From a virus (Duplodnaviria; Heunggongvirae; Uroviricota; Caudoviricetes): a stretch of DNA of 19,672 nt. Position numbers and translations under genes: made by a program. Shown here in pieces: positions 5,840 to 6,688 of the stretch (its first letter is position 1; each line of letters begins with the position of its first letter). The notes beneath the pieces were generated by a model, which worked only from the letters and a program-made list of their open reading frames with translations, ran no database searches and had not been told where the DNA came from. The stretch spans positions 1 to 19,672 of the IMG/VR virus record IMGVR_UViG_2531839666_000030. One strand, 5' to 3'.

Positions 5840-6121
5840 GTGAAAAAAAATCTCATTGCATGGGCGTGGTCGAGTGGTCTTATTGAGTTCGGTTACGTCC
5901 TGCCGGAAGGTGCATTGCCGATAGTTGCCGGAAAGCCTGCCACGGTACGGCATGTGATTGAGGTTATGGCGCGTCATGGACGTGATGAACAGGAGCAGTT
6001 ACTGGTTCCGGGGATACCGGAAGCGGTGACGGAGGAAGAAGCCTTTAATGCCATGATTCGGTTCTGCCGTGAGGTCAGACGCCGGGTCAGTTATCCAAAC
6101 AGAACGAGGACCAGAGGATGA
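5840..6121 (+). CDS. hypothetical protein (93 aa)
   Basis: GTG start preceded by GGAGG (5829-5833). No recognised domain. Confidence 0.45.
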   Translation: MKKNLIAWAWSSGLIEFGYVLPEGALPIVAGKPATVRHVIEVMARHGRDEQEQLLVPGIPEAVTEEEAFNAMIRFCREVRRRVSYPNRTRTRG

Positions 6122-6390
6122 GTAAAGTCGTACGCATTATTTTCGAATACAAGGAAGACGTTATCTGTAAAAACTCTGATGGCAGTGCGCACATGGGGGT
6201 AAGTCTGGATATACGGTCAACCGGAATAAAGAAGAAAGATAATGGACCCGCCACGATTTTGGGAGTGGTTATGCTCGCGGAAAGCAGAAACTTCGCAGAG
6301 CTTGTGGCAATGAAAGCCAGTGCATTCATGAAAGACAGGGGCATGGCTTCCGGGGTTATTAACGGTAATGAATTTAATCAGCAGGGGTAA
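6118..6390 (+). CDS. hypothetical protein, first of two tandem paralogs (MSKVVRIIFEY...)
   Basis: 90 aa, start overlaps the previous stop (ATGA). N-terminus MSKVVRIIFEY resembles the next ORF, MSKVRVIFEF. Confidence 0.5.
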   Translation: MSKVVRIIFEYKEDVICKNSDGSAHMGVSLDIRSTGIKKKDNGPATILGVVMLAESRNFAELVAMKASAFMKDRGMASGVINGNEFNQQG

Positions 6391-6394
6391 TTCC

Positions 6395-6688
6395 ATGAGC
6401 AAAGTACGCGTTATTTTTGAATTTAACCACGTAATGCATGAAGTAAAGCCAGCCGGTAATGATAGTCAGGAAATCACGGAGGGGGTTACTGCCACTGTAA
6501 AAGTCGAACGTGATACGGAGAACAGACCGACAGGCCCATGTGATGTTTATGCGCAAATTCTTAAATATCACAGCCCCACAATTATTCAGTTTCTGACAGA
6601 TGAACTACAGGGTTCCATGCAGGCCATGGGGGTAAGCAGCTCCGTTGAACGCCGTTCTGTTCAGAACGGACCAGATACATTGCAATAA
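6395..6688 (+). CDS. hypothetical protein, second tandem paralog (MSKVRVIFEF...)
   Basis: 97 aa from ATG 6395 (the ORF track begins at 6368, but the internal ATG gives the paralogous N-terminus). C-terminal segment MGVSSSV echoes GMASGVI in paralog 1. Confidence 0.5.
   Translation: MSKVRVIFEFNHVMHEVKPAGNDSQEITEGVTATVKVERDTENRPTGPCDVYAQILKYHSPTIIQFLTDELQGSMQAMGVSSSVERRSVQNGPDTLQ

What the first reader, a model, noticed from the sequence alone, without database searches (positions are those of the whole stretch)
6118..6688. Tandem paralogous pair of small genes (MSKVVRIIFEY / MSKVRVIFEF)
Two adjacent genes encode about 90-aa proteins with near-identical N-termini and a related C-terminal segment. 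That points to a local duplication that has diverged, which is a common signature of genes under diversifying pressure (for example inhibitor families against host systems).
Basis: seen in the sequence. Interest (0 to 1): 0.5.

Follow-up and report, generated by a model that had tools for sequence, protein, structure and literature searches.

The report
Duplicated Mu gp7 (Gnarl2-like) accessory genes
Two neighbouring small genes in an E. coli Mu-like prophage are old, strongly diverged copies of one gene, distantly related to phage Mu gp7 ("Gnarl2"), a protein reported to alter the host's O-antigen coat; the pair marks a hot spot of allele swapping but is a variation on a known kind of phage accessory gene.

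Summary
6118-6390 (wA, 90 aa) and 6395-6688 (wB, 97 aa) are adjacent + strand genes in the early operon of an Sp18-type Mu-like prophage, between MuB/Kil and Gam.

**Are they paralogues?** As single sequences, only the N-termini (MSKVVRIIFEY / MSKVRVIFEF) are clearly alike. Family profiles align over 75-78 columns (hhalign 91%, E about 1e-6). A shuffle control shows that the rest of the protein adds signal. Both are predicted as a beta-hairpin followed by a long helix.

**What family?** wB belongs to phrog_2230. That family sits as a single copy near gam in enterobacterial Mu-like phages. In Mu variant PhiR68_1 it precisely replaces canonical Mu gp7 (Mup07/E6, "Gnarl2"). Gnarl2 is reported to downshift O-antigen bands and sensitise wild E. 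coli to T5. Its link to wB is remote (hhalign 87%).

**How variable is the locus?**
- wA is a duplicate seen only in the Sp18-type prophages, mostly E. coli.
- One strain carries a single wA/wB hybrid gene.
- Against Sakai Sp18 the flanks are 98-100% identical, wA 83-90%, wB 57-72%.
- dN/dS is 0.1-0.4, so this looks like cassette exchange, not demonstrated positive selection.

**Function.** A host-envelope (O-antigen) modulator is inferred, not shown.

The parts
6118..6390 (+). wA: 90-aa protein (phrog_4107), the divergent upstream paralogue seen only in the Sp18 lineage. It is basic (pI 8.9). Its ATG overlaps the TGA of the upstream gene (ATGA at 6118-6121).
   Evidence: ORF and sequence. phrog_4107 at E 5e-54. 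39 homologues; every named one is E. coli. AlphaFold2 pLDDT 78, strands 6-18 and 24-35, helix 44-73. dN/dS 0.11-0.43 against other prophages. pI.
6395..6688 (+). wB: 97-aa protein (phrog_2230), a member of the MAKVIFEF-type family that takes the place of Mu gp7. It is acidic (pI 5.2) and lies immediately upstream of gam.
   Evidence: phrog_2230 at E 2.7e-36. 29.6% identity to PhiR68_1 gp7, E 2e-8 against five proteins. Family search in 1.84e9 representatives. AlphaFold2 pLDDT 85, strands 4-21 and 24-39, helix 48-77. hhalign to the Gnarl2 family Prob 87%, E 3.8e-6.
6118..6150 (+). Conserved 5' module of wA (codons 1-11, MSKVVRIIFEY), which forms the first beta-strand. The crossover in the L009 hybrid gene falls here.
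   Evidence: DNA alignment. Codon table.
6395..6424 (+). Conserved 5' module of wB (codons 1-10, MSKVRVIFEF), the direct-repeat partner of 6118-6150.
   Evidence: The same module (M-A/S-K-V-I-F-E-F) is the left boundary of the Mu / PhiR68_1 allele swap.
5840..6121 (+). Context: upstream 93-aa gene (phrog_1518, labelled 'host nuclease inhibitor'). Its stop codon overlaps the wA start.
6700..7230 (+). Context: the Mu Gam gene (PF07352), the downstream anchor of the locus.

Best explanation
wA and wB are two tandem, anciently diverged paralogues of the small (84-100 aa) hairpin-plus-helix protein family that occupies the gp7 (E6/Mup07) slot of enterobacterial Mu-like phages.

They are co-transcribed with the transposition genes A and B, kil and gam from the early promoter, so they are made at the start of lytic development or induction.

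By remote homology and positional allelism with Mu gp7 (Gnarl2), they most likely act without enzymatic activity. The proposed mode is binding a host protein and perturbing cell-envelope biosynthesis (O-antigen/LPS). Different alleles would match different host variants. Having two copies would widen or split that specificity.

Shown here:
- the genes, their paralogy and their family membership
- copy-number variation between prophages
- cassette-like allele exchange
- purifying selection

Inferred:
- transcription from the early promoter (no internal signal was found, but the promoter itself was not located)
- the O-antigen-directed function and the protein-binding mode
- the reason for the duplication
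For: Paralogy:
- hhalign 91%, E about 1e-6, over 75-78 columns.
- Shuffle control: 0 of 150 reach the real score even with the N-terminus kept.
- An independent HMM recovers wA at E 2.6e-5 among 3177 ORFs, with no hit to any unrelated ORF.
- Same predicted topology, with the helix starting at the aligned GP.
- Shared 'VR' insertion.

Family and slot:
- wB matches phrog_2230.
- Family members lie as a single copy just upstream of gam in L006 and L008, and at the gp7 slot in PhiR68_1.
- Mu and PhiR68_1 are 97% identical on both sides. They lose homology exactly from about codon 7 of gp7 to its stop codon. The phrog_2230 type and the Gnarl2 type are therefore interchangeable alleles.
- Gnarl2 family against the wB family: hhalign 87%, E 3.8e-6, 71 columns. 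Mu gp7 against phrog_2230: E 0.009.

Function of the relative:
- NP_050611.1 (Mup07) is gnarl2. It downshifts O-antigen bands and gives 1e5-1e6-fold T5 sensitisation in ECOR1 and ECOR22, the two hosts listed for it. Its target is unknown (PMC12373910).

Operon and selection:
- No promoter-like site and no + strand terminator in 5300-7400. Start and stop codons overlap.
- dN/dS 0.1-0.4.
- Named family members come mostly from Escherichia, Shigella, Salmonella, Yersinia and Cronobacter, all O-antigen-diverse, plus one partial Acinetobacter MAG protein.
Against: - The link from wB to the experimentally studied Gnarl2 is remote: 17-18% identity, 87% hhalign probability, and HMM E-values of only 0.009-0.027.
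- For wA the direct link to Gnarl2 is only a helix-region match (P=0.008).
- No structure of Gnarl2 was predicted here, and the BFVD search returned nothing.
- The target of Gnarl2 is unknown. The authors state that LPS modification may not be its primary role.
- Alleles this diverged may have different targets.
Confidence: 0.5

Rival explanations
1. The evolutionary picture is the same (tandem gp7-family paralogues), but the function is unrelated to O-antigen. Examples would be inhibitors of an intracellular defence or nuclease system, or other host-takeover factors. Each allele would have its own target.
For: - The genes lie among host-takeover genes: kil, a gene labelled 'host nuclease inhibitor', and gam.
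- Homology to Gnarl2 is remote.
- The Gnarl2 target is unknown and its AP-MS data showed no clear pattern.
- Extreme allele diversity is typical of counter-defence genes.
Against: - The only experimental phenotype for any family member is O-antigen alteration (PMC12373910).
- No match to any curated family in Pfam or NCBIfam. PADLOC was not searched.
Confidence: 0.3
2. wA is a chimera. Only the first 10 or so codons were copied from wB, by partial duplication or gene conversion, onto an unrelated gene body. The two proteins would then not be true full-length paralogues.
For: - At single-sequence level nothing beyond the N-terminus is significant.
- With the N-terminus trimmed, hhalign gives only P=0.02.
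- Recombination breakpoints do fall in this 5' module.
Against: - With the N-terminal block fixed and the rest shuffled, 0 of 150 shuffles reach the real profile score, z about 6.6.
- The trimmed alignment is in the same register as the full one.
- Length and predicted topology are the same, and helix boundaries coincide with the alignment.
Confidence: 0.08
3. The basic wA and the acidic wB form an obligate heterodimer that serves phage development (for example Mu replication or regulation) rather than host modification.
For: - Opposite net charge.
- Tight spacing: 4 nt between the two genes.
Against: - wA and wB alleles reassort freely: a window-type wA occurs with either wB type.
- Most relatives, and strain STEC299, manage with a single gene.
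- The region is the non-essential accessory part of Mu genomes (established knowledge of Mu biology).
Confidence: 0.07

Closest known systems
Phage Mu gp7 (E6, Mup07, NP_050611.1), called Gnarl2 by Silas et al., Nat Commun 2025 (PMC12373910)
   Same: - Same genomic slot, in the early accessory region between B/kil and gam.
- Same size class (87 aa against 90 and 97 aa).
- Same M-(A/S)-K-V-I-x-E-x N-terminus.
- Profile-profile match to the wB family: 87%, E 3.8e-6, 71 columns.
- Precisely replaced by a wB-family allele in PhiR68_1.
   Different: - A separate PHROG (10252, against 2230 and 4107).
- Under 20% identity to wA and wB.
- Always a single copy in the 19 loci examined.
- The Gnarl2 phenotype (O-antigen downshift, T5 sensitisation) has not been tested for wA or wB.
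phrog_2230, the MAKVIFEF-type gp7 proteins of PhiR68_1, Mu_3F6 and Salmonella, Yersinia and Cronobacter Mu-like prophages
   Same: - wB is a clear member (E 2.7e-36).
- Shared motifs: KVIFEF, G-P-x-D...A-x-I, and a C-terminal helix ending in G.
- Located just upstream of gam in L006 and L008.
   Different: - wB and wA carry an extra V-R after MSK.
- wA falls outside the PHROG (no hit at E<0.1) and is reached only by profile methods.
ECs_4950 / ECs_4951 of prophage Sp18 in E. coli O157:H7 Sakai
   Same: - Direct orthologues of the pair, in the same arrangement.
- The pair region, queried together with the upstream gene and gam, matches 232 of 5426 complete E. coli genomes.
   Different: - Different alleles: wA 80% and wB 60% amino-acid identity, despite 98-100% identical flanks.
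- Both are annotated only as hypothetical proteins.
Gnarl1 (ATI16509.1) and Gnarl3 (QEG07807.1, binds GalU)
   Same: Small phage accessory proteins with the same reported phenotype class, O-antigen alteration (PMC12373910).
   Different: No sequence relationship to wA, wB or Gnarl2 (hhalign Prob below 0.5%). They share a name by function only.

Membership tests
Mu gp7 / Gnarl2 (phrog_10252) | Significant sequence similarity to NP_050611.1 and its family | tested here: inconclusive
   - wB family against the Gnarl2 family: hhalign Prob 87%, E 3.8e-6, 71 columns.
- Mu gp7 against phrog_2230: E 0.009.
- The wB/gp7-family HMM hits Gnarl2 ORFs at E 1.7e-4 to 0.04, ahead of the only two other ORFs listed (E 0.12 and 0.24).
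- wA family against the Gnarl2 family: helix region only, P=0.008.
- This is remote homology, not membership of phrog_10252.
Mu gp7 / Gnarl2 (phrog_10252) | Position in the early accessory region between B/kil and gam of a Mu-like phage | tested here: met
   Window order is MuB, a 75-aa gene, Kil-like, a 93-aa gene, wA, wB, Gam. Mu order is B, kil, gp6, gp7, gp8, gp9, gam. The PhiR68_1 allele swap lies at exactly the gp7 ORF.
Mu gp7 / Gnarl2 (phrog_10252) | Expression downshifts O-antigen bands and sensitises wild E. coli to T5 | not testable with these tools
   The phenotype is reported for NP_050611.1 only (PMC12373910). An experiment is needed.
phrog_2230 (MAKVIFEF-type gp7 family) | Full-length HMM match | tested here: met
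   - wB: E 2.7e-36, residues 3-97 on profile positions 1-88 of 89.
- wA: no hit at E<0.1 in PHROGs. A locally built family HMM without wA sequences gives E 2.6e-5, and hhalign gives 91%.
- So wB is a member, and wA is a sister family (phrog_4107, E 5.4e-54).
Tandem paralogue pair (local duplication) | Homology over the whole length, shared derived characters, and a single copy in outgroups | tested here: met
   (profile homology with shuffle controls). (same topology). (shared VR insertion). (single copy elsewhere).
Type II toxin-antitoxin pair | Two different small proteins, one matching a known toxin or antitoxin fold; conserved as a pair | tested here: not met
   The two proteins are homologous to each other. 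Neither matches any Pfam or NCBIfam family. Relatives carry one gene.

The most novel reading that the evidence does not exclude
The gp7 slot of enterobacterial Mu-like phages is a dedicated specificity locus. Whole ORF bodies are exchanged as cassettes between the conserved first 7-10 codons and the stop codon. Each allele would be matched to a different host envelope or O-antigen biosynthesis variant. In Sp18-type prophages the slot has been doubled into a basic/acidic pair. That pair would either cover two host types or work as a heterodimer with a new specificity.
Probability: 0.2. Interest if true: 0.6.

Novelty: new member of a known kind. Interest (0 to 1): 0.4.

Why it matters
The result gives a testable functional lead for two 'hypothetical' genes. 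They are carried by Mu-like prophages in about 4% of complete E. coli genomes, including O157:H7 Sakai Sp18, O26 and O111 STEC.

It ties three PHROG families with no recorded relationship (4107, 2230, 10252) into one superfamily. The only studied member of that superfamily, Gnarl2, alters the O-antigen.

If the pair changes the O-antigen on induction, it could affect serotyping, phage susceptibility and superinfection in STEC.

The precise cassette swaps also make this locus a clean natural system for asking what sets the host-strain specificity of Gnarl2.

Tried and rejected
- **Single-sequence statistics beyond the N-terminus.** Not significant. hhalign with the N-terminus trimmed is marginal (P=0.02). 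Profiles and shuffle controls were needed.
- **Word-indexed homologue searches.** They found only close relatives.
- **Exhaustive profile search.** It gave just 31 representatives at E<=0.001 among 1.84e9 proteins. One (P0055, a 710-aa repeat protein) is a false positive.
- **PDB sequence search.** No significant match (best E 0.25).
- **Pfam and NCBIfam.** No family.
- **A third relative.** w5344 (5344-5571) shares a local 'LLFEFN' match with wB (E 0.005). The family HMMs do not support it.
- **First assumption about Mu gp7.** I first took the PhiR68_1 protein (MAKVIFEF...) to be canonical Mu gp7. Translating NC_000929 showed that canonical gp7/Gnarl2 is a different allele (MAKVIIEI...), so the functional link had to be downgraded to remote homology.
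- **Scans that yielded nothing.** The search for related loci with the family alignment failed for lack of a conserved stretch. 42 Gam-anchored loci from non-enterobacterial species contain no family member.
- **Gnarl1 and Gnarl3.** Unrelated.
- **Toxin-antitoxin reading.** Rejected, because the proteins are homologous to each other and relatives have a single copy.
- **Positive selection.** Not shown: pairwise dN/dS is 0.11-0.43.

Full report
**1. Where we are.**

The window is a Mu-like prophage of E. coli. The stretch 5300-7300 is 88-91% identical to the Mu-like inserts in two Stx-phage records. The stretch 5840-7230 matches 232 of 5426 complete E. coli genomes, including prophage Sp18 of O157:H7 Sakai.

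Pfam and PHROG scans fix the gene order on the + strand:

| Coordinates | Gene |
|---|---|
| 2236-4344 | ORF in the transposase A position (702 aa, not scanned here) |
| 4415-5347 | MuB |
| 5344-5571 | 75-aa gene |
| 5572-5838 | Kil-like gene |
| 5840-6121 | 93-aa gene labelled 'host nuclease inhibitor' (phrog_1518) |
| 6118-6390 | wA |
| 6395-6688 | wB |
| 6700-7230 | Gam |
| 7328-7870 and 7874-8407 | two further early-region genes; the second matches Pfam Gp11_C |

No promoter-like site and no + strand terminator is found in 5300-7400. The wA start overlaps the upstream stop (ATGA). wB starts 4 nt after the wA stop. The pair therefore most likely belongs to the long early operon.

**2. The observation.**

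wA is 90 aa. wB is 97 aa from the family-conserved ATG at 6395; the mechanical ORF begins at 6368. The N-termini are MSKVVRIIFEY and MSKVRVIFEF. At DNA level about 25 of 30 aligned bases match, with one extra codon in wA.

Single sequences give weak support:
- BLASTP gives 22% identity over 85 residues, E=0.002.
- In a shuffle test, 1 of 5000 shuffles reach the full-length score.
- Without the N-terminal 10-11 residues, 115 of 5000 do, and the best alignment is then out of register.

From two sequences alone, only the N-terminus is convincing.

**3. Profiles settle the paralogy.**

I collected homologues of wA (39, all named ones from E. coli), of wB and of the PhiR68_1 gp7 protein. I then ran an exhaustive profile search of 1.84e9 representatives. 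It gave only 31 hits at E<=0.001, one of them a repeat-protein artefact.

- hhalign of the wA family against the wB/gp7 family gives Prob 91%, E about 1e-6, over 75-78 columns.
- In a column-shuffle control the real score is 35.7. With all columns shuffled it is 10.8 +/- 2.3. With the N-terminal block kept and the rest shuffled it is 22.4 +/- 2.0, maximum 31.4, and 0 of 150 reach the real score. The body of the protein therefore contributes.
- An HMM built without any wA sequence was run on 3177 ORFs from 54 loci. Its only hits outside its own family, up to E=1, were the wA genes (five at E 2.6e-5 to 5e-4, the divergent L005 copy at 0.24) and canonical Mu gp7 (0.027).
- AlphaFold2 predicts the same topology for both. 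wA has strands 6-18 and 24-35 and a helix 44-73 (pLDDT 78). wB has strands 4-21 and 24-39 and a helix 48-77 (pLDDT 85). In both, the helix starts at the aligned G-P.
- Both genes carry a V-R (GTA CGC) insertion after MSK that other subfamilies lack. This points to a duplication within this lineage rather than import of a distant relative.

**4. What the family is.**

wB is a clear member of phrog_2230 and wA of phrog_4107. Neither family has a Pfam or NCBIfam model, or a significant match to any solved structure.

In two other Mu-like prophages (L006, L008) a single phrog_2230-type gene lies directly upstream of gam. In the Mu variant PhiR68_1 it occupies the gp7 slot.

Canonical Mu gp7 (NP_050611.1, MAKVIIEIKNT...) is a different allele, phrog_10252. 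Mu and PhiR68_1 are about 97% identical on both sides. Homology stops about 20 nt into gp7 and resumes at its stop codon. This is a precise swap of the ORF body.

The relation of the Gnarl2-type family to the wB family is remote but consistent:
- With 15 distinct sequences from Mu itself and 19 IMG/VR loci, the Gnarl2-type family aligns to the wB family at Prob 87%, E 3.8e-6, over 71 columns.
- Mu gp7 hits phrog_2230 at E 0.009.
- The wB/gp7-family HMM ranks every Gnarl2 ORF ahead of all other ORFs of those loci.

Named family members come mostly from Escherichia, Shigella, Salmonella, Yersinia and Cronobacter, plus one partial Acinetobacter MAG protein. None occurs in 42 Gam-anchored loci from other bacteria.

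**5. Function of the relative.**

Two papers from one screen name Mup07/E6 'gnarl2' (bioRxiv 10.1101/2023.04.06.535777; Nat Commun 2025, PMC12373910). The accession and coordinates in their supplement (NP_050611.1, NC_000929 4784..5047) match the record.

The findings they report:
- Expression downshifts O-antigen bands in ECOR1 and ECOR22, the two hosts listed for it.
- It raises T5 infection 1e5-1e6-fold.
- The target is unknown.
- The authors suggest seroconversion that benefits an established phage, through exclusion or by avoiding re-adsorption to debris.

Gnarl1 and Gnarl3 are unrelated in sequence to this family.

**6. Copy number and diversity.**

- The pair is present in Sakai Sp18 (ECs_4950/4951), in both Stx-phage inserts, and in L005 and L010.
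- Gnarl2-type loci have one copy.
- E. coli STEC299 (L009) has a single 98-aa gene. Its upstream sequence and first six codons are of wA type, including the extra codon. The rest is of wB type.
- The body of that gene is visibly closer to the Sakai-type wB allele than the window's own wB is (sequences; 60% identity to the window's wB). I therefore favour loss of wA by recombination between the two 5' modules. An ancestral single copy is not excluded.
- Against Sakai Sp18, nucleotide identity is 98-100% over 5300-6139 and again from 6680. It falls to 83-90% in the wA body and to 57-72% in the wB body.
- Pairwise dN/dS is 0.11-0.43 for wA and 0.31-0.34 for wB. For wB, dS is about 0.93, against 0.1-0.2 in MuB and gam, where dN/dS is about 0.05.
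- wA and wB alleles reassort. L003 and L010 combine a 96%-identical wA with a 59%-identical wB.

This pattern indicates exchange of old alleles under relaxed but real purifying selection. It does not demonstrate positive selection.

**7. Mechanism.**

Shown: two expressed-looking, constrained paralogous genes of the gp7 superfamily in the early operon, and a locus that swaps alleles and varies in copy number.

Inferred: the proteins are too small to be enzymes. Like Gnarl2, they probably bind a host component and disturb O-antigen/LPS biosynthesis. Alleles would be tuned to host variants, and the duplication would extend that range.

**8. Verdict.**

The pair is a new, duplicated member set of a known kind of phage accessory gene. 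Its function is inferred by remote homology only. Interest is moderate.

Noticed in passing
L011 (phage Mu NC_000929) 1485-1748 versus L001 (PhiR68_1) 2495-2764: Two Mu genomes about 97% identical on both sides lose homology exactly from about 20 nt into gp7 to its stop codon. The Gnarl2 allele (phrog_10252) is swapped for a phrog_2230 allele as a precise ORF-body cassette.
   Followed up: yes
L009 2897-3193 (E. coli STEC299): A single 98-aa hybrid gene. Its upstream region and first six codons are of wA type and its body is of wB type. This fits deletion of wA by recombination between the two conserved 5' modules, or an ancestral single copy.
   Followed up: partly
window 5840-6121: A 93-aa gene in phrog_1518, labelled 'host nuclease inhibitor' in PHROGs and in the Sakai annotation, with no Pfam or NCBIfam match. 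In L005 and L010 this slot is taken by a different cassette: a 139-aa gene sits upstream of Kil and no gene lies between Kil and wA. In L003 only the last 22 residues find a match.
   Followed up: no
window 7328-7870: The 180-aa gene after gam is 96-97% identical in most related prophages but only 25% identical in L003 (LC727895 insert). This is another allele-replacement slot.
   Followed up: no
window 5344-5571: The 75-aa gene after MuB (phrog_3375) exists as two deep alleles: dS about 0.65-0.73 and 75-79% amino-acid identity in L003, L005, L009 and L010, against 96-99% in L002 and L004. Neighbouring MuB has dS about 0.1-0.2. Its local 'LLFEFN' resemblance to wB was not supported by the HMMs.
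   Followed up: partly
wA family alignment A1 (wA residues 12-27 and 67-78): Among E. coli wA alleles, variation clusters at the end of strand 1, the hairpin tip and the start of strand 2, and at the C-terminal end of the helix and the tail. Residues 1-11, 28-66 and most of the helix are nearly invariant. This may mark a specificity surface.
   Followed up: no
P0055 (710-aa protein from the representative library): A highly repetitive protein (13 repeats containing EQTGPASMFAVILLS) scored E 2.5e-21 against the family profile through the G-P...helix motif. It is a repeat-driven false positive, worth remembering when using this profile.
   Followed up: partly
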